NCBI GenBank assembly: GCA_951406725.2
Contig: OX597819.1
Span: 48,856,001-48,920,000, forward strand
Direction: 5' to 3'
DNA: 64,000 nt
Source of the DNA: Octopus vulgaris
Lineage: Eukaryota
How positions within the stretch are numbered: position 1 is the first letter of the stretch; the number at the start of each line of letters is the position of its first letter. Below, in pieces: positions 4,450-60,055 of this stretch. Below the pieces are notes generated by a model, which made no database searches, was not told the origin of the DNA, and saw nothing but the letters and a program-made list of their open reading frames with translations. Position numbers and translations under genes: made by a program.

Positions 4450-5590
4450 TTGGGTCATCCCATAAAGAATGTGGCTTTTTCAATTGCATGAGCTAAAAGT
4501 CAGAGGGGGACAGGATAAACTACTTGCATCAACTTGCAATAAAAGTAGGTAGTAGTTTTACCTTGTCCTTATTTCTAGTGATAGTTTTGAAGAGTGCAGT
4601 TCGATTTTAACAGTTATTTCTTCAAAGCTGTAAAAGAAGTGACAAAGGAGCATATTTGGCATATTTTTCTTTATGAGTTCAGTGGAGGCAACAACACAAT
4701 GGAAAGTGTGAGGAATATTGATACAGTATATAGGGATCAGACAATAAGCATAAGCCAGTGTCAACGGCGATTCCACAATTTCTGAGCTGGAAACTACAGC
4801 TTAGAAGACGAACCTCATCTTGGAAGATATGTAGAGCTTAACAAGAACATCTTGCAAACCCTGGCGGAACAAAATCCCATTGTAACAGTTGAAGAACTAG
4901 CAGAGAAGCTTGGATTTGGTCTCTGACTTTTTAGCTCATCAACACTTGTGTGCCATCAGAAAAGTCAGCAAATTGGATCAATGGGCTCCTCACAAACTTT
5001 CTGAGTCTAATCACATGCAGAAAGTGAATGTGTTCTCTTTGCTGTCACATCTCACAAATGAATCTTTTTTGGACTGAATAGTGACTGGTGACAAGAAATG
5101 GGTTCTCTATAAAAAAAAATGTCAAGCACTGAAGACAGTGGGTAGGAAAAGGAGAAATGCTGGCACCCTAGGCAGTCTTCACCCATGTAAGGTATTGTTA
5201 TCTGTTTGGTGGGATATGAAAGGTTTAGTCTACTTTGAACTTTTAAACCCAAACCAAATGACGACAAAGGAGATCTCCTGTGAGCAGCTCAAGTGGCTTA
5301 AATTAGCACTAGAAAAAAAACCCCGACCATCTTTGGTTTCAAGATGAAAGGTGTTCCTCCATCAGGATAATGCCCAGCTACATACAGTGAGGATGACATT
5401 TCAAAGGCTGGAGCAGTTTGAATGGGAAATGATACCCCACCCACCATATTCACCGGATATTGTCCCATCTGGTTATCATTTATTCAGCAGTCTTGAAAAT
5501 CGTTTGGATGGAAAAAATATGAATTCTGTAGACATGGTCAGAACAGTACTGGAGTAGTATTTTCTGTCATGGACAAATGAATTTTGGAAG
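4450..5590 (+). mobile_element. Decayed mariner (DD34D-type) transposon with 5' TIR; transposase pseudogene; 3' end lost
   Basis: TIR TTGGGTCATCCCATAAA after a TA tract; translated motifs WAPHKL, VTGDKKWVLY, HQDNAQLH, HPPYSPDIVPSGYHLF with frameshifts and stops. Confidence 0.92.
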
Positions 5591-7302: not shown

Positions 7303-8469
7303 TCACCCTTGTTCACCATAGTCCTCCAGGCAATAACGGAGGAATTTAAGACAGGCTGCCCTTGGGAGTTCCTCTATGCTGATGACCTTGTTCTTATATC
7401 TGAATCACTACCAGAACTAGGGAAGAAATTTCTGTTGTGGAAGCAAAGTCTGGAATTGAAGGGCCTTAGTGTCAATTTAGCAAAGCTCAAAGTCTTAGTA
7501 AGTAGGAAAATAAATAAATCTCAAATCCCTCCAGGGTGATGGCCTTGCTTGATATGAAGAGAAAGCATAGGTAGAAATACATAAGAGGTGCAGCAATATT
7601 AGAGGAAGGTTAGCAGAGAAAGGAGTCTTTGTGTGTGGTCAATGTATTGGTACAATAAACACTAGAAATGTACAGGAAACAGACTTCATCAAATACCAGG
7701 GGAGGATACTTAGAAGAACTTGATAGCTTCCATTATCTGGGTGGATGCTCCAAGAGTGGAGGTGGATGCTCTGAGAGTGTAGCTACTAGAATAAAAATAA
7801 GCTGGGCAAATTTCAGAGAGCTTCTATCCTTGTTGGTAACAAAAGGCCTCTCCCTCAGAGTGAAAGGCAGATTGTATGATGCCTGCGTGCGAACAACCAT
7901 GCTACATGGCAGTAAGACATGGGCTGTGACTGAAGAAGATGTGTGAAGGCTTGAAATAAATGAAGCTAGTGTGTTTGCAATGTCAGTGTACATGTGCAAC
8001 AGTATAAACATCTTGAGAGAAAAATTGGCCATAAGAGGCATCATATGTGATGTGCAAGAGAGGCAACCTCACTGGTATGGTCATGTGATGTATAGGGATG
8101 AGGACAGCTGTGTAAAGAAGTGCTGATCTCTAACTGTGGTAGATATAGACCCAGGAAGACATGAAACAAAGTGGTAAAGTAAAGTATGATCTTTGGATGT
8201 TGGGTCTCACATAGATAAGTGACTGAGACCTTTGATGATTTGCTGTACTTGAGAAGACTCATCAAGCCAAGTGAAATTGTAGTCATGGCTAGTGCTGGTG
8301 AAACATAAAAAGCACCAAATATACTCTTGGAGTGGTTGGCATTAGAAAGAGCATCCAGCCATAGAAACCAAGCCAAATCATACTGGAACCTGATACAGCT
8401 CTCACGCTTACCAATCCCAGTCAAACTAACTGTTGCCAGCATGGAAAATGGATGCTGAATGATGATGAT
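7303..8469 (+). mobile_element. 5'-truncated RTE-clade LINE (RT C-terminal part, 3' UTR, (GAT)n tail)
   Basis: LFTIVLQAITEEFKTGCPWEFLYADDLVLI (YADD motif), FHYLG, KGRLYDACVRTTMLHGSKTW; broken by stops and frameshifts; tail ends GATGATGAT. Confidence 0.92.
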
Positions 8470-8496
8470 ATACATACATATGTAATAGAGAGGTGA

Positions 8497-8848
8497 TTAA
8501 TAAACTATTATTTATTAATTTAAAAAATTGACAAACATCCCTTACAGCTGTTTCAATTTCAGGCCTTCAGAAAATTAATTAATTAAGTTAAAAATTATTT
8601 GAAAGTTAAATTTCTTCAGAGGTAGTTTAAGATATACAAAATAGGTGTTGAATTCCTGCATGCTGAGCAAACTTTAACATCAACATGCAGGAATTGAACA
8701 CCTATTTTGTATATCTTAAACTACCTCTGAAAAAATTTGACTTTCAAATAATTTTGATTTAATTAATTAATTTTTTGAAGGTCTGGAATTGAAACAGCTG
8801 TAAGGGATGTTTGTCAATTTTTTAAATTAATAAATAACAATTTATTAA
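8497..8848. repeat. Long inverted repeat (~170-bp arms), Penelope-like terminal palindrome with a degenerate hammerhead motif
   Basis: Left arm ~8497-8665 is the reverse complement of the right arm ~8683-8848; contains CTGAAGG...GAAACAGCTGTA on the minus strand. Confidence 0.75.
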
Positions 8849-8882
8849 ATACTATTCTATTTTCTCATATTTTTATAATAAA

Positions 8883-9441: not shown

Positions 9442-9700
9442 TTGCAGCGTTGAAGGTGTTTATAAGCCATTTAAGAAACACACAAAAACCGTTAGATTCA
9501 CTTCAACATTTAAATTTAATTTGTCAAAACATTTTCATCGCTTTGAGACCGCGACCTGTTAGCACGATATTTTTGTCAGTGAACAGGTCGCGGTCTCAAA
9601 GCGACGAAAATATTTTGGCAAATTAAATTTAAATGTTGAAGTGAATGTAACGGTTTTTGTGTGTTTCTTAAATGGCTTACAAACACCTTCCACGCTGCAA
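9442..9700. repeat. Inverted repeat (~119-bp arms), Penelope-like palindrome; duplicated at 11385-11643
   Basis: 9442-9560 is the reverse complement of 9582-9700, separated by a short spacer. Confidence 0.85.
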
Positions 9701-10067: not shown

Positions 10068-10333
10068 AGACCTGGTAGAAACAGCAGCCAAATCTCCCTC
10101 AAATCACACCTTACTGTCTTATGTATGTATATATATATGAGCCAATGAGGGGGACCTCTACATGGTAGCTAGACCTGGTAGAAATAGCAGCCAAATTTCC
10201 CCCAAATCACACCTTACTGTCTTATCTATGTATATATGTATGTATGAGCCTATGAGGGAGACCCCTACATGGCAGCTAGACATGGTAGAAATAGCAGCCA
10301 AATCTCCCTCAAATCACACCTTACTGTCTTATC
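10068..10333 (+). repeat. ~105-bp tandem repeat (about 2.5 units; about 3.5 units in the duplicate at 12001-12373)
   Basis: Repeated AGACCTGGTAGAAATAGCAGCCAAATCTCCCTCAAATCACACCTTACTGTCTTAT. Confidence 0.9.
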
Positions 10334-13300
10334 TTTCTGCTACTTGGATATAGGTGTTATATTCGTCGTAAAAAACTTTCCTGTCACACACTCACGCACA
10401 CGCACACACACACACACACGCACCCTCACACACGCGCACACCCACACACACCCACTCACGTTAGCTTACAATTTTATTTATATATTTGCGTGTGTATGTG
10501 TGGAAAGAGGAAGTGGGAGGCAGAGTGAAAGAATCACTCACTACAGTAAGTCAATTACTTTCATTTTATTCGTTGCCCACTGTGTGTGTGCGTTTGCGTG
10601 TGGTGTAAACCAGACTAAGAAAAGCATTTGACACACACACCAGAATGTGAGTTTTCTGTAAATTTTGCTTAATTGGAGTTTAAATTTTAAAAACTGGACC
10701 TGGCATGACGCGATGCATTGTACTGTTAAAAATGCTAGGTAAATTGTAATTGAAGAAATCCTATATTGTAGATTTGTACAACTCCCAAAGGGAGGCAGAT
10801 AAAATCTGCCTTTTATAATAAGAGACTAGCAGTATCGCCCGGCGTTGCTCGGGTTTGTAAGGGAAATAATTATATAAGCATTTTTAGAGATGTAAAGTAT
10901 AATAGCCATCTCAATATGGCTAACCACAAAGGGGGAGGGGTGTTACTGTAGCTTTTTACGTTCTGAGATTTAATAATAAATTTTAGAGAGTTACTTCCCT
11001 TATATATGTCAAAAATGGATTAAAAATGGGAAAAATTGATGGTAAATTTTTTTTTAAATCGTAGACTCATCGTAGACGCACGCTAATACCCAGACGGTCT
11101 CGATATGAATCACGACTATAAGATACCCGGTTTTGGTTAAACTGCACCGCAAAATGTGGGAGTAGTTAGGAATCTAAATCGTAGGAGACAGACACACAAC
11201 CTCACTTTTATATATAAAGATTTCCTCTATTTACATAATATTGAGGTCTCTTTCTTTCTTTTGTTATCTTACTGTTTTTACCAATATACATATATATATA
11301 TATATATAAATATATATATAGTTACAGAGATGTACTTGCATAGCAAGTGACTTGATCTGAGATCGTGTGCTGGAACGAAAACAGTTGCAGCGTTGAAGGT
11401 GTTTATAAGCCATTTAAGAAACACACAAAAACCGTTAGATTCACTTCAACATTTAAATTTAATTTGTCAAAATATTTTCATCGCTTTGAGACCGCGACCT
11501 GTTAGCACGATATTTTTGTCAGTGAACAGGTCGCGGTCTCAAAGCGACGAAAATATTTTGGCAAATTAAATTTAAATGTTGAAGTGAATGTAACGGTTTT
11601 TGTGTGTTTCTTAAATGGCTTACAAACACCTTCCACGCTGCAATATATATATACACACATATATATATATGTATGTATGTATGTATGTGTGTATATGTGT
11701 ATGCATGTATGTGTGTGTGTGTGCGTGTCTGTGCTTGTGATTGTCCTCCACCACTGCTTGACAACGAATGTTGGTTTGTTTACATCCCTGTCACCTAGTG
11801 GTTTGACAAAGGAAACAGATAGAATAAGTACAATGCTTACAAAAATAAAAGTGGAGTTGATTCATTAAACTACAATTCTTTAAGGCATTGCCCCAGCATG
11901 GCTACAGACCAATGGCTGGAAAAAGCAGAAGAATAAAAGAATACATTCTCTGCTTTGGTCAAGGCATGAGAAAGCTTGAGTTTACATGAGAAGGCCTAAC
12001 AGACCTGGTAGAAACAGCAGCCAAATCTCCCTCAAATCACACCTTACTGTCTTATGTATGTATATATATATGAGCCAATGAGGGGGACCTCTACATGGTA
12101 GCTAGACCTGGTAGAAATAGCAGCCAAATTTCCCCCAAATCACACCTTACTGTCTTATCTATGTATATATGTATGTATGAGCCTATGAGGGAGACCCCTA
12201 CATGGCAGCTAGACCTGGTAGTAATAGCAGCCAAATTTCCCCCAAATCACACCTTACTGTCTTATCTATGTATATATGTATGTATGAGCCTATGAGGGAG
12301 ACCCCTACATGGCAGCTAGACATGGTAGAAATAGCAGCCAAATCTCCCTCAAATCACACCTTACTGTCTTATCTTTCTGCTACTTGGATATAGGTGTTAT
12401 ATTCGTCGTAAAAAACTTTCCTATCACACACTCACGCACACGCACACACACACACACACGCACCCTCACACACACACACACGCGCACACCCACACACACG
12501 TTAGCTTACAATTTTATTTATATATTTGCGTGTGTATGTGTGGAAAGAGGAAGTGGGAAGCAGAGTGAAAGAATCACTCACTACAGTAAGTCAATTACTT
12601 TCATTTTATTCGTTGCCCACTGTGTGTGTGCGTTTGCGTGTGGTGTAAACCAGACTAAGAAAAGCATTTGACACACACACCAGAATGTGAGTTTTCTGTA
12701 AATTTTGCTTAATTGGAGTTTAAATTTTAAAAACTGGACCTGGCATGACGCGATGCATTGTACTCTTAAAACTGCTAGGTAAATTGTAATTGAAGAAATC
12801 CTATATTGTAGATTTGTATAACTCCCAAAGGGAGGCAGATAAAATCTGCCTTTTATAATAAGAGATAAAGATATATAAACCACAGTTTATATAGTTACCT
12901 TGCAGTTGAGTATTAATTGTAATGTTCAATATTCTTTGTATAGGTAACTAACCAGTACTTTCATAGGATTTTGTTATCCCTGAATGAGGTTTGTAACATT
13001 TATTTGTGCTTATATATATATATATATATATGTGTGTATATATACATACATACATAAATATGTATGTATATATATATATATATTTCTGTTTGTGTTAGAG
13101 GTTGGGAAACCAACCAACTAAGGGATAATAACTATCCAATATACTGCTGGTTGTGTACCCAATTATTCATACCCAAGTGCTAGTTATTGCATGACAATCT
13201 CGCAATTGAGTGTTATATATGGGCGGGGGTAAAAAGTGGTTTACCCTTAATTTATATGACAAATAAGAAAATGGAGAGGATACAAAAACGACATACATCA

Positions 13301-13359: not shown

Positions 13360-14256
13360 TGAACAGGACGTCCAGCTGAGTTTGATAAGCTCCTTGAGGC
13401 ATTACTTGAAGGAAATCCTGCATTATCAGTTGAAGAATTGGCAATAAAGCTTACTTCAAACCATACAACTGTTCATCGTCATCTTCAACAACTTGGAAAA
13501 TGGGTGCCTCATGAATTGTCCGAAAGCAACTGCAAATCCTGAGTTGACATCTGCTCTTCCCTCCATTCTCGCGAACTCATTTCACCCTTTTTGGATAGAC
13601 TTGTGACTGGTGATGAAAAATGGATCTTCTATTGAAATGTTAAATGTCGTAAACAGTGGCTTGGTAAAAGTGAAAAAGCTCAACCACAACTGAGAAGGGA
13701 ACTTCATGGGAAAAAGGTTCTTCTCTCTGTCTAGTGGGATTGCAAAGGAGTAATTCACTTTGAATTGTTATCACCTAATGCAACAATCAATGCTCAAGTC
13801 CACTGTCAGTAATTAGAGTGTTTGAACCAAGCTTTGAAAAAAAAAAAGACCCGCTTTAGTGAATCGAAAAGGAGTGATGTTTCATCAGGACAATGTGTGG
13901 CCCCACTCTGCAAAGATCACATCACAGAAGATCGAAGAGCTTGGTTGGGAAAAAGTTCCTCATCCACCTTATTCTCCTGACCTCGCTCTTTCAGACTACC
14001 ATTTGTTTCATAGTCTACAGAATCATTTGAGGGACATAACTTTCACAAGCCAGGAGGAGGTTGAAACTGACATTTCAGAGTTCTTCGCTTTGAAACCAAA
14101 AGAGTTTTACATTGATGGGATTAAAAAGCTTGTAAATAGATGGAAGGAAGTCATACATAATCAAGGAAAGTACATTGATGATGAAATTTCAATTAAATAT
14201 AATATTTGATCACTTATTTTCTTTATTCAAAATTTGGACAGAATTTATGGGATGAC

Positions 14257-14748: not shown

Positions 14749-15001
14749 ATGTAATAACCATGTATTACATACACATGTACTAATATTACAGAAAAGAGCA
14801 AAAGATCAGATTGTTAGTAGGTACTAGTTCCTACTGACAATCTGATCTTTTGCTCTTTTCTGTAATATTAGTACATGTGTATGTAATACATAGTTATTAC
14901 ATGTGTATGTATTCTTCTAATACATTGGAATAAATAGACATACTAGAATGTCTACCGGCTGATGTATGTCGTTTCTGTACCCTCTCCATTTTCTTATTTG
15001 C
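14749..15001. repeat. Palindrome centred at ~14826 whose left arm continues at 13258-13359
   Basis: Near-perfect hairpin at 14749-14901; ~14909-15001 is the reverse complement of ~13258-13345. Confidence 0.85.
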
Positions 15002-31655: not shown

Positions 31656-32196
31656 ATAATCCCTGCCCCCACCCCACTGAGGTGGCAAGTTAGCAGAATC
31701 ATTAATACTAGCTGGACCCAGGAAAAATTCATGGAAAATATAAAAAAATGTAAGCATTTGTAAATTGTGTGCTGGTGCCATGAGAAACGTTTCTATATTT
31801 TGACAGTTACTGAATAAAGAAAGATGTGTAAAACTGATAACTATATAACCCAACCAAGATATCTCAGTTACGCAAACGTAAACAGAATTACTACTTAGTC
31901 TTAAAATACATCATACATGTTCAAGGAACCTTCTTGGTTTAGTGGTATGGAATGTTCTTCTGGTATTCTTTTACTTGTTTCAGTCATTTGACGGTGACCA
32001 TGCTGAAGCACCACCTTTTAGTCGAAGAAATCAACCCCTGGAGTTATTCCCTGTAATCCTGGTGCTTATTCTATCATTTTCTTCTGCTGAACAGCTAAGT
32101 TATGGGGACACAAACACACCAACATCAGTTGTCAAACAATGGTAAGTGGCGGGACAGACACAAACACACACATAAAAATATTATATATATATGTAT

Positions 32197-33287
32197 ATAT
32201 ATTATATTAAATTAGAGATAAAACCACTATTAGGCAAATCAAACAATGAAAAACATAAGCCAATACATAAAATTAATTAATTTATATTATTTAAATATAT
32301 ATCAAAAGTATTAAAAGTTTAATAAAAGATAAAGAGTATAACACTACGATCGTTTCATGGCTGTACAATTCGTAATAATTCGAGTTATGGTTACAGTCAA
32401 TCTTCAGGTTAATTGAAATATCTAAAATATAATCAGAAATATTTAAACAATATTTTTAAGATATAAATAATATAATAATTTTACTTATAATAAACTCTTT
32501 TATCAAACTAGAAACATAAAACTTAACAATTATGATTATATCAAAATCGACTATAATGTTAAATATTAATTTTAATTTATAAGATGGAAACCCACCAATA
32601 ATCTAATATCAGTATTAATCTATATCTAATTACATAAATATTTAAAAATGACTATTATATATAAATTATCAATGAAAATATATAAATGTATATAAATATT
32701 ATAATTAAGATCTAAAATAATCTCTATAAATAAATATATATGCACATATATATTTATTTATAGAGATTATTTTAGATCTTAATTATAATATTTATATACA
32801 TTTATATATTTTCATTGATAATTTATATATAATAGTCATTTTTAAATATTTATGTAATTAGATATAGATAATACTGATATTAGATTATTGGTGGGTTTCT
32901 ACCTTATAAATTAAAATTAATATTTAACATTATAGTCGATTTTGATATAATCATAATTGTTAAGTTTTATGTTTCTAGTTTGATAATAGAGTTTATTATA
33001 AGTAAAATTATTATATTATTTATATCTTAAAAATATTGTTTAAATATTTCTGATTATATTTTAGATATTTCAATTAACCTGAAGATTGACTGTAACCATA
33101 ACTCGAATTATTACAAATTGTACAGCCATGAAACGATCGTAGTGTTATACTCTTTATCTTTTATTAAACTTTAATACTTTTGATATATATTTAGATAATA
33201 TAAATTAATTAATTTTATGTATTGGCTTATGTTTTTCATTGTTTGATTTGCCTAATAGTGGTTTTATCTCTAATTTAATATAATATA
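32197..33287. repeat. ~1.09-kb near-perfect palindrome (~545-bp arms), Penelope-like inverted terminal structure
   Basis: Arms are reverse complements around a centre at ~32743 with few mismatches; an unpaired extension continues to ~33375. Confidence 0.9.
33074..33148 (+). ncRNA. Minimal type I hammerhead ribozyme motif (mirror copy on the minus strand at ~32337-32412)
   Basis: CTGAAGA (33079-33085), stem II TGACTGTA/TACAGCCA, GAAA, palindromic stem III CGATCG, GTA cleavage triplet, short stem I TAAC/GTTA. Confidence 0.65.
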
Positions 33288-33373
33288 ATATAATATATTT
33301 ATACTATAAAATTGGATTTAATCCTAAATCTGATTTTTCCCTGTAAGTTTGGATTTATTCCCTAATATTTTAT

Positions 33374-36224: not shown

Positions 36225-36930
36225 ATCATCATCATCATCATCATCATCATTTAACATTTGCTTTCCATGCTGGTATGAGTTGGATGGTTTGATTGAGGAC
36301 TGGGAAGCCAGGAGACAGCACCAGGCTCGAATCTGATCTGGCAAGGTTTCTGCAACTGGAATTCCTTCCTAATGCCAACCACTCTGAAAGTGTAGTGGGT
36401 GCTCTTTACATGCCACCAGTAGTGGTGCCAGTCAAGTGGCTCTGGCATCGACCATGTTCAAATAGTGCTTTTTACATGCCACTGGCATGAGTGCCAGTCA
36501 GGCTGCCCTGGCATCGGTCAAGACAATGATTTCACTGGACTCAGCAGGTCTTCCATATATGAATAATATATATATATATCTTGTTTCAGTCATTTGACTG
36601 TGGCCATGCTGGGGTACCAATTTTAGTTGAATGAATTGACCCCAGTACTTATAATTTTTTAAAGCCTGGTATTTATTCTATTGGTCCCTTGGTCTCTTTT
36701 GCCGAACTGCTAAGTTATGGAGATGTAAACACACCAACTCCAGTTGTCAAGTGGTGATGGGGACAAGCAAACACACACATATATATGATGAGCTTCTTTC
36801 AGTGTTTCTTTCTATCAATCTCTCTCAAAGGCTTTGGCTTACCTGAGGCTTTGTAGAAGACACTTGCCCAAGGTCCATGCAGTAGAACTGAACCCTGGGA
36901 ACCAAACTTCTGACCATGCAGCTATGCCAT
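36225..36930 (-). mobile_element. RTE 3' tail (36225-36555) followed by a family A SINE (36580-36930)
   Basis: (CAT)n-led RTE tail and the reverse complement of a full family A SINE. Confidence 0.8.
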
Positions 36931-37004
36931 TTATATATATATATATAAATATTATTATTTCTAAGTCTCTCTAAAGGAGACTATGGCAGTGGTACTGGAT
37001 ATTA

Positions 37005-37491
37005 ATAGCTATCGCCAAGCTAATATGGCAGTTTATAAATATAGGATGAAAGCTGCCATTGATTAGCTCCAAGAGGCCATTGCCTCAAGCTAGCTATATG
37101 ACACATGAACCTCTGTCCATTATAGCCTTCGAACAGGGGAGGTCAGCTGCTTCCCCTTGTTGGTCAGACATCTGCAGACATGTTTCAGGGTATTTGCCCT
37201 TTATCAATGTAGAGTAGAGTAATGGGTTGGAGGAAGTCCTTCCTCATCAACGCGATATCTCTGTCAACTCTGCTGGGTTCGGCTATTTCTGCATTGATAA
37301 AGGGCAAATACCCTGAAACATGTCTGCAGATGCCTGACCAGCAAGGGGAAGCAGCTGACCTCGCCTGTTCAAAGGTTATAATGGACACAGGTTCGTGCGT
37401 TATATAGCTAGCTAGAGTGATGGCCTCTTGGAGCTAATCAACGGCAGCTTTCAACCTATGTTTGTGGACTTCCATATTAGCTTGGTGATAA

Positions 37492-37495
<4 letters not shown>
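37005..37495. repeat. Inverted repeat (~208-bp arms), Penelope-like palindrome
   Basis: 37005-37213 is the reverse complement of 37288-37495, with a 74-bp spacer. Confidence 0.88.
37288..37330 (+). ncRNA. Minimal hammerhead ribozyme-like motif with variant core TTGATAA (mirror copy 37171-37213, minus strand)
   Basis: Stem I TCTGCA/TGCAGA, TTGATAA, stem II AGGG-caaata-CCCT, GAAA, stem III CATG, GTC triplet. Confidence 0.65.
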
Positions 37496-37550
<55 letters not shown>

Positions 37551-37589: not shown

Positions 37590-37831
37590 TTGTTATATTT
37601 CGGAATGGTCATTTTGCCAGTTTAGCCAATAAAAACACATGCACTATATATTTGGTGTTATTTTGCTTCAGTGTTATTTATAAGATTAAGATTAATGTAA
37701 AAAATAGAACTCTGGCCGAAATAAGATTAAGATTAATGTAAAAAATAAATAACACTGAAGCAAAATAACACCAAATATATAGTGCGTATGTTTTTATTGG
37801 CTAAACTGGCAAAATGACCATTCCAAAATAT

Positions 37832-37837
<6 letters not shown>
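37590..37837. repeat. Inverted repeat (~90-bp arms) with a direct repeat in the spacer
   Basis: 37590-37680 is the reverse complement of ~37746-37837; ATAAGATTAAGATTAATGTAAAAAATA occurs twice. Confidence 0.8.
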
Positions 37838-59262: not shown

Positions 59263-59369
59263 GTATCATAGAACTAGGCACAATCTCTGGCGCATTAGTA
59301 TCAAAAGTGTTAATGATTCTAAAATCTACTGCTCTAATCTAAAGTGCTGAAGATTTGCAGAATCATTAA

Positions 59370-60055
59370 CACTTTTGATACTAAAGTGCCAGAGACTGTG
59401 CCTAGTTCTATGATACATACGTCTTGTTTAGTGATCTAAATTAAAGACCTGCATCAAAATTTCATGTTAGTTCCAAACACCAGTTTAATAATTATTTCTA
59501 CTCTAAGCACAAGGCCTTGGAAATTTTGGGTGTTAAGCGAGGTAGTTGATTACATCAACCCCCCACCCTTCCCAGTGTGCAACTGGTACTTATCTCATTG
59601 ACCCCAAAAAGATGAAAGGCAAAGTTGACCTTGGCGGAGTTTGAACTCAGAATGTAGCGGCAAACGAAATACTGCTAAGCATTTTGCTTGGCGTGCTATC
59701 GATTCTGCCATCTCGCCACCTTTAAACCTTTTGTTACTGTATTTCTTTCGAAATGCTCTGTGTTTCTTTCAATTACTTCAAATATTACAAAGAATTTAGT
59801 AAAATAACTTGGTTATCATTAAGCTAGTTTTAGGAACATAAAATGTGAATATGGTTTGGTGGAAGATTTTAATTCAAAACTTATGGAGACAAGACATTTG
59901 TACTCAGAACCAGAGCCGGTTTCAGCCAGGTTGGTAACGAAAGGGTTAAACACCAGTTTAATAATGACAAAGTTTGTTTCTCTAAATTTTTCATTATTTT
60001 CAAAATTAATTCAAACAAAGGCTGTGTTATTCAACAGAGATATGGTGATGAAAGG
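59370..60055. mobile_element. piggyBac-like MITE containing a family B SINE (59493-59720, minus) and a second piggyBac MITE (59726-59945)
   Basis: TTAA-flanked termini; SINE TSD AAACACCAGTTTAATAAT at 59475-59492 and 59948-59965; inner MITE is the same family as 57381-57601. Confidence 0.82.

What the first reader, a model, noticed from the sequence alone, without database searches (positions are those of the whole stretch)
37005..37495. Palindrome with a textbook hammerhead fold but a non-canonical core (UUGAUAA) in both arms
Seen: TCTGCA-TTGATAA-AGGG(caaata)CCCT-GAAA-CATG-TC-TGCAGA at 37288-37330. All three stems are present and the motif marks the inner edge of the arm. The opposite arm has the same TTGATAA although the arms have many mismatches elsewhere. 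Established: in the hammerhead core CUGANGA, C3 pairs with G8, and U3-A8 is a compensatory swap known to retain activity. Here both positions are changed together (C to U, G to A). Inference: this is a natural U3-A8 hammerhead variant of a Penelope-like family, not decay.
Basis: partly seen in the sequence, partly recalled or inferred. Interest (0 to 1): 0.72.

Follow-up and report, generated by a model that had tools for sequence, protein, structure and literature searches.

The report
U3-A8 hammerhead in Penelope-type palindrome
This is a decaying, folded-back copy of a many-copy repeat, likely spread by Penelope-like retrotransposons, whose predicted self-cutting RNA (a hammerhead ribozyme) carries a swapped core base pair throughout the family, a swap already reported in other animals.

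Summary
The motif is real. A 500-nt head-to-head palindrome (arms 191/215 identical) carries a type I hammerhead fold on each arm with core UUGAUAA (U3-A8).

The family test supports the conclusion. In 5,240 contigs from 4 public runs, no other base reaches 4% at U3 or A8. Stem III changes AU to UA in 17-27% and stays palindromic. Stem I variants look compensatory. Loop 2 (CAAAUA) and an internal loop match the Schistosoma tertiary contact.

The context is Penelope-like: inverted arms, a 39-nt one-sided tail, (TA)n flanks. No PLE reading frame was found, so that link is inferred. This copy is probably inert: a read-through RNA is predicted to bury both ribozymes.

Natural U3-A8 hammerheads are published (Perreault 2011), and so is the exact UUGAUAA core in an animal genome, with U3-A8 found via a Schistosoma PLE (Cervera 2014). 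What is new is modest: a family combining U3-A8 with the canonical tertiary-contact architecture and an A-U pair at 10.1-11.1. Cleavage is untested.

The parts
36929..36959 (.). (TA)n / AT-rich left flank, likely the insertion target
   Evidence: sequence
36960..36998 (-). 39-nt extension present on the left arm only; inferred PLE 'tail'
   Evidence: a 30-40 bp one-sided tail is described in PMC8557442 and PMC3846280 (passages); one contig table 5c continues past 37494 with letters like the start of this tail
36999..37213 (-). left arm of the head-to-head palindrome
   Evidence: 191 of 215 columns identical to the right arm
37171..37213 (-). left hammerhead copy: U3 at 37207, A8 at 37202, predicted cut after 37177; A.C mismatch in stem I at 37210; no extended stem I
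37214..37263 (.). spacer without cover by family contigs; holds a small hairpin (37230-37236 / 37239-37245) that may be the fold-back point
   Evidence: zero depth 37214-37263; inner symmetry weak: 213 of 5000 shuffles score as well
37270..37343 (+). right hammerhead with extended, internally looped stem I (37271-83 pairing with 37332-43; internal loop 37284-87 / 37331)
   Evidence: pair probabilities 0.51-1.0; family loose ends
37288..37330 (+). minimal type I hammerhead: U3 37294, A8 37299, A10.1 37301 - U11.1 37314, loop 2 37305-37310, palindromic stem III 37318-37323, predicted cut after C37324
37288..37496 (+). right arm; high-copy family sequence with no long reading frame
37497..37545 (.). 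(TA)n right flank

Best explanation
This is an old head-to-head insertion of a high-copy repeat, likely a Penelope-like (PLE) terminal repeat or a non-autonomous derivative of one, whose RNA is predicted to fold into a type I hammerhead ribozyme and whose family consensus has U3-A8 in place of C3-G8. Shown: the palindrome, the tail and (TA)n flanks, the fold-compatible sequence, and U3 and A8 as family consensus. Inferred for the family: in transcripts of source elements two ribozymes would pair through the self-complementary stem III (ACAUGU or ACUAGU), loop 2 would dock on the internal loop of stem I as in the Schistosoma ribozyme, and the RNA would be cut after C17 to trim precursor transcripts. 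A PLE reverse transcriptase/GIY-YIG endonuclease would insert copies at (TA)n, and fold-back priming would give the inverted second arm. The U3-A8 swap would have arisen once in the founder, been tolerated because the 3-8 pair is kept, and been amplified by descent. Inferred for this locus: both arms have since gathered private mutations, the two ribozymes lie on opposite strands, and a read-through RNA would form a long hairpin that buries them, so this copy is probably inert.
For:: 5,240 contigs laid (1305+1942+1136+857; 4 of 24 listed runs, 4 organism labels, at least 80% alike). No row for 37294-37300; the per-run tallies of T>C and A>G changes are fully explained by shown rows elsewhere, so the 3 hidden rows cannot be reversions to C3 or G8. 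37320 A>T and 37321 T>A occur at matching shares (0.187/0.184, 0.175/0.177, 0.223/0.224, 0.269/0.273), which keeps the stem III palindrome (self-duplex -4.6 vs -4.8 kcal/mol). Stem I 3' variants (37327 C>T 2.5-12.5%, 37330 A>C 4-8.5%, 37333 C>T 40-54%, 37335 T>A 2-14%) each have a complementary letter in the upstream loose-end consensuses (read by eye). Loop 2 CAAAUA equals the Schistosoma loop 2 (PMC2632901, passages); its 3' A (37310) and the first internal-loop U (37331), which form the key tertiary pair there, show no variant at 4% or more although two neighbouring loop 2 bases vary at 13-43%. PLE hallmarks as described in PMC8557442 and PMC3846280 (passages): head-to-head repeats of about 200 bp, 30-40 bp tail at one end, (TA)n target, hammerhead in the repeat. 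Opposite-strand joints at other positions in 2 contigs (table 5). In the full hairpin the hammerhead stems have pair probability 0 (+ strand).
Against: No cleavage data. No PLE reading frame linked: 0 GIY-YIG hits and one weak RVT_1 hit 30 kb away among 150 of 185 filtered frames, and no genome was held. Core invariance alone is weak (P about 0.07 for 0 of 13 core sites variable), and the free position N7 is invariant too, so common descent explains much of it. Table 3 gives marginal shares, so linkage of the compensatory pairs is inferred. The conserved G10.1-C11.1 pair is A-U here (G.U in 13-16%), which could lower activity. The architecture is the canonical type I fold that PMC7229834 ties to tandem retrozymes, not the minimal form typical of animal PLEs (PMC4209133). 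The 80% likeness filter and clipping near 37288 could hide a diverged C3-G8 sister family. Rfam does not recognise the motif.
Confidence: 0.78

Rival explanations
1. The family is a tandem non-LTR retrozyme (small circular RNA with a canonical type I hammerhead) and this palindrome is an atypical PLE-mobilised monomer insertion. This overlaps with the best explanation, because retrozymes are proposed to derive from PLE terminal repeats.
For: Canonical architecture (6-bp helix I, 4-bp helix II, palindromic helix III, loop contacts) and a 230-270 nt unit fit retrozymes (PMC7229834, passages; PMC4209133, parts 1-2 of 4). The PLE origin of retrozymes is argued in bioRxiv 10.64898/2026.07.22.740005 (title, passages, part 2 of 5). 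No long frame in the arm.
Against: This locus is inverted, not tandem. No end-to-start joint is listed, though contigs are short and tables were cut. The tail and (TA)n target point to PLE insertion.
Confidence: 0.12
2. The family once had a working ribozyme but the U3-A8 / A10.1-U11.1 form is catalytically dead or negligible and was amplified passively; the conserved fold serves, at most, as a binding site for the PLE protein.
For: Two departures from the usual core. PLE hammerheads cleave weakly in vitro (PMC4209133), and hammerhead mutants did not affect insertion by an Anolis PLE in vitro (PMC11167929, passages).
Against: The palindrome-preserving stem III swap and the stem I changes occur among copies that carry U3-A8, so the fold appears to have been maintained after the swap. 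Covaried 3-8 ribozymes are reported active in vitro (PMC3088659, section 8).
Confidence: 0.07
3. The motif is a chance fold in the terminal inverted repeat of a MITE-like DNA element, or decay of a C3-G8 ribozyme in this copy only.
For: The window holds many palindromes without hammerheads; no Rfam hit.
Against: 0 strict hits in 60 simulated windows; U3 and A8 are family consensus; covariation and tertiary-contact bases are kept.
Confidence: 0.03

Closest known systems
U3-A8 minimal hammerheads of Schistosoma mansoni, found through the Cercyon PLE (Cervera and De la Pena 2014, PMC4209133)
   Same: Same U3-A8 covariation, about 1,300 genomic hits; the supplement lists an S. mansoni family with the identical UUGAUAA core and a PLE-marked one with UUGAAAA. 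The paper also notes paired minimal hammerheads 100-700 bp apart on opposite strands.
   Different: Those are minimal motifs (typically long helix II, short helix I, extra base after A9, no helix III, no loop contacts). This one has a 6-bp helix I, 4-bp helix II, palindromic helix III and the loop-contact signature.
Canonical metazoan type I hammerheads: S. mansoni Sm-alpha and the non-LTR retrozymes of coral, mussel and axolotl (PMC2632901, PMC7229834)
   Same: Helix sizes, CAAAUA loop 2, internally looped stem I with a 5' U and a 3' pyrimidine, weak palindromic helix III.
   Different: The consensus core of these is C3-G8 (PMC7151607, PMC2837043 passages) and G10.1-C11.1 is called typical of canonical motifs (PMC4209133); they occur in head-to-tail tandem repeats. 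Here U3-A8, A10.1-U11.1 and a head-to-head insertion with tail.
Inverted pseudo-LTR insertions of endonuclease-bearing PLEs (Penelope/Poseidon, Neptune; PMC3846280, PMC8557442)
   Same: Head-to-head repeats of about 200 bp, optional 30-40 bp tail on one arm, small palindrome at the inverted junction, microsatellite target, hammerhead within the repeat.
   Different: No ORF here, and no sequence link to a named PLE family was established. The clade is unknown; Neptune would fit a microsatellite target plus a hammerhead, but that is a lead only.
Natural U3-A8 hammerheads (Perreault et al. 2011, PMC3088659)
   Same: First report of natural C3-G8 to U3-A8 covariation; states such ribozymes were already shown active in vitro.
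   Different: A few examples rather than a high-copy animal repeat family.

Membership tests
Type I hammerhead ribozyme | Core N3-UGA-N-N8-A ... GAAA ... UH with a Watson-Crick 3-8 pair | tested here: met
   U3-A8 in both arms and in the family
Type I hammerhead ribozyme | Helices I and II pair next to the core; helix III closed or self-complementary | tested here: met
   the left copy has one stem I mismatch
Type I hammerhead ribozyme | Covariation of stems across copies | tested here: inconclusive
   matching marginal shares at 37320/37321 in 4 of 4 runs and complementary loose ends; linkage on single copies not shown
Type I hammerhead ribozyme | Loop 2 / loop 1 tertiary-contact bases (canonical subtype) | tested here: met
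   CAAAUA loop 2, invariant 3' A and internal-loop U against PMC2632901; sequence signature only
Type I hammerhead ribozyme | G10.1-C11.1 pair (usual; Perreault's filter asks only for a pair) | tested here: not met
   A-U, or G.U in 13-16%; still paired
Type I hammerhead ribozyme | Match to an Rfam hammerhead model | tested here: not met
   not treated as defining
Type I hammerhead ribozyme | Site-specific self-cleavage | not testable with these tools
   needs an assay; only contigs were available
PLE pseudo-LTR insertion | Head-to-head inverted repeats of about 200 bp holding a hammerhead | tested here: met
PLE pseudo-LTR insertion | 30-40 bp tail at one end | tested here: met
   39 nt on the left arm only; family status of the tail rests on one contig (table 5c)
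PLE pseudo-LTR insertion | Microsatellite (TA)n target or target-site duplication | tested here: met
   (TA)n on both sides; a duplication cannot be read in TA runs
Autonomous PLE | RT plus GIY-YIG reading frame linked to the repeat | tested here: not met
   none at this locus; so not filed as an autonomous PLE. Genome-wide link not testable
PLE minimal hammerhead (min-HHR) | Long helix II, short helix I, extra base after A9, no loop contacts | tested here: not met
   4-bp helix II, 6-bp helix I, loop-contact signature
Non-LTR retrozyme | Head-to-tail tandem repeats of 170-400 nt | tested here: inconclusive
   not at this locus; no such joint listed, but contigs are short and tables cut
Non-LTR retrozyme | Abundant circular RNA of unit length | not testable with these tools
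   no holder on record as RNA

The most novel reading that the evidence does not exclude
A repeat family of thousands of copies, shared by several related species, has fixed two departures next to the hammerhead active site (U3-A8 and A10.1-U11.1) in a fully tertiary-stabilised type I ribozyme that still cleaves efficiently, and it is a PLE-mobilised retrozyme-like element that spreads as palindromes rather than tandem arrays. It would be a natural test of how loop contacts buffer core changes and a structural bridge between PLE terminal repeats and retrozymes.
Probability: 0.3. Interest if true: 0.5.

Novelty: new member of a known kind. Interest (0 to 1): 0.28.

Why it matters
Modestly. The headline feature, a natural U3-A8 hammerhead in a Penelope-type repeat, has been in print since 2011 and 2014. 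The family adds a high-copy example in a canonical, loop-docked fold with a second change at 10.1-11.1. Searches that require CUGANGA would miss it, and Rfam did. It gives a ready natural construct for testing whether tertiary contacts buffer core swaps, and a marker for finding the partner PLE.

Tried and rejected
No whole genome was held, so copies could not be collected as loci. Rfam: 0 hits at gathering threshold in the window; 11 weak unrelated hits around the element. blastn of the element against the window found no second copy; a relaxed scan gave 2 other poor candidates, rejected. Two metagenome scans, one for the ribozyme and one for a downstream 20-mer, found 0. A viral scan for the core plus stem II found 9 loci, none with a type I stem I of more than 4 bp; treated as chance and unrelated; types II and III were not tested. 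No RNA holder listed; not used as evidence on expression. The spacer 37214-37263 had no cover; not taken as proof that it is foreign. Pfam on 150 of 185 filtered frames of at least 60 aa: no GIY-YIG. Earlier findings of this scan: 3 look-ups, nothing. Rejected: the two-arm argument (P 0.44-0.47; shared minority alleles at 37353, 37449, 37453). The 43-nt ribozyme has 1 of 21 arm differences (P 0.043), too weak to claim selection at this locus. Rejected reading: A37301 as an unpaired extra base with G10.1-C11.1, since it needs a U inserted before G12 and the family variant A>G fits a G.U pair. Literature searches for 'octopus + hammerhead ribozyme', 'hammerhead + retrozyme + cephalopod' and 'Penelope, octopus, palindrom, Neptune' showed no description of this family. 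The library lacks many subscription papers and Repbase/Dfam were not available, so absence from print is not established. Przybilski and Hammann 2007 was seen only as a reference title; Lunse 2017 on dimeric PLE hammerheads is recalled, not read.

Full report
Observation. The motif is at 37288-37330 as quoted, with a mirror at 37171-37213 on the minus strand. The arms 36999-37213 and 37288-37501 agree at 191 of 215 columns. A strict descriptor (paired 3-8, stem I of 6, stem II of 4, palindromic stem III) gives 1 hit in the window and 0 in 60 simulated windows. Only the right copy passes; the left has an A.C mismatch in stem I. Rfam has no match.

The two-arm argument fails. With 21 differences over 209 positions, 7 given bases are identical with P 0.47. 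Both arms carry alleles that are the minority in the family at 37353, 37449 and 37453, and each has private changes. They are two copies of one template that have decayed separately.

Family test. No genome was held. I found 24 public runs, none holding half of the words, and laid 4 of them (X1, X2, X5, X7; four organism labels; X1 read to about 76%) on 37214-37500 at 80% likeness. 5,240 contigs were laid. Table 3 shows 40 of 43 variant rows at 4% or more, none in 37294-37300. I recomputed the tallies: every change from T or A is explained by shown rows; the unexplained ones are C>T and G>A. So neither C3 nor G8 reaches 4% of depth in any of the 4 runs, while a hidden variant at G5, G12, C15.2 or C17 cannot be excluded. 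Summed depth is some thousand times that of single long contigs, which suggests thousands of copies; the tool warns that this is no copy number. Limits: contigs are clipped near 37288 because this copy has a 1-nt insertion there, the 80% filter hides diverged sister families, and 387 loose-end rows were not shown.

Signs that the fold mattered. Core invariance alone is weak (about P 0.07; the free position N7 is also invariant). The pattern of change says more. The two inner bases of the stem III palindrome change together, AU to UA, at equal shares in all 4 runs (17-27%), keeping self-complementarity. Four 3' stem I variants each have a complementary partner in upstream loose-end consensuses (by eye; linkage inferred). 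Stem I extends through an internal loop to about 37270/37343. Loop 2 is CAAAUA, as in the Schistosoma ribozyme, where the loop's 3' A pairs with the first U of internal loop 1 and a pyrimidine ends the other side (PMC2632901, passages). Here both bases are invariant while neighbouring loop bases vary at 13-43%, and the family's other side reads UAC or UGC. Against: pair 10.1-11.1 is A-U (G.U in 13-16%), not the usual G-C.

What kind of element. The arms face head to head, the left one carries a 39-nt extension, and both ends run into (TA)n. These are described features of endonuclease-bearing PLE insertions: inverted repeats of about 200 bp, an optional 30-40 bp tail, palindromes at the junction read as self-priming, microsatellite targets (PMC3846280 and PMC8557442, passages). 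The tail corresponds to two reverse-transcription start sites in an Anolis PLE (PMC11167929, passages). A small hairpin at 37230-37245 may be the fold-back point (weak, 213 of 5000 shuffles). No long frame lies in the arms and no GIY-YIG was found in 150 of 185 frames scanned, so the PLE link is architectural. The ribozyme's build is the canonical type that PMC7229834 (passages) assigns to tandem retrozymes, which a 2026 preprint derives from PLE repeats. A non-autonomous PLE derivative fits both.

Mechanism. Inferred: source transcripts dimerise through stem III, dock loop 2 on stem I, and cut after C17. A PLE protein would copy and insert the RNA at (TA)n, with fold-back giving the second arm. 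U3-A8 keeps the 3-8 pair and was spread by descent from a founder. At this locus the ribozymes are on opposite strands and cannot dimerise in cis. In the folded plus-strand read-through RNA (-377 kcal/mol) the hammerhead stems have probability 0; the minus strand folds into the same kind of long hairpin. This copy is probably inert unless transcription starts in the spacer.

Prior art. Perreault 2011 (PMC3088659, section 8 and passages) reported natural U3-A8 covariation and notes earlier in vitro activity. Cervera and De la Pena 2014 (PMC4209133, parts 1-2 of 4 and supplement passages) found U3-A8 through a Schistosoma PLE with about 1,300 hits; the supplement lists the identical UUGAUAA core in one S. 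mansoni family. They measured only low cleavage for a minimal S. mansoni motif, with no rate for a U3-A8 form in what I read. I found no description of this family (one supplementary file of PMC8557442 had no match to an 18-nt piece). Figures, bioRxiv supplements, repeat databases and many subscription papers were out of reach.

Verdict. New member of a known kind, interest 0.28.

Noticed in passing
window 37590-37836: A second palindrome directly beside the finding (92-nt arms, 97%), also between (TA)n runs, with a 27-nt direct repeat in its centre; no hammerhead by my scans.
   Followed up: partly
window 32178-33307: Very AT-rich, nearly perfect palindrome with about 565-nt arms (98%) and TA-rich flanks; possibly a young inverted PLE-type end (unverified).
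   Followed up: no
window 8484-8861, 14749-14902, 59263-59416: Further short palindromes (85-96%); palindromic insertions are common in this window.
   Followed up: no
window 9442-9700 and 11385-11643: The same palindrome twice, about 1.9 kb apart, within a local duplication (near-identical frames at 10248 and 12288).
   Followed up: no
window 4591-4782, 5078-5344, 13838-14206: Mariner transposase remnants (Pfam HTH_48 and Transposase_1 for the first two; the third by eye, recalled similarity).
   Followed up: partly
window 7303-7536: Weak RVT_1 match (E 5e-5, below the curated cut-off); class of retroelement not determined.
   Followed up: no
window 37301/37314: Pair 10.1-11.1 is A-U, or G.U in 13-16% of family depth; never listed as G-C.
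   Followed up: partly
whole window: Repeat content (SINE-like pieces, long TA/TATG arrays) looks like an octopus genome; this is recalled, not shown by a call.
   Followed up: no
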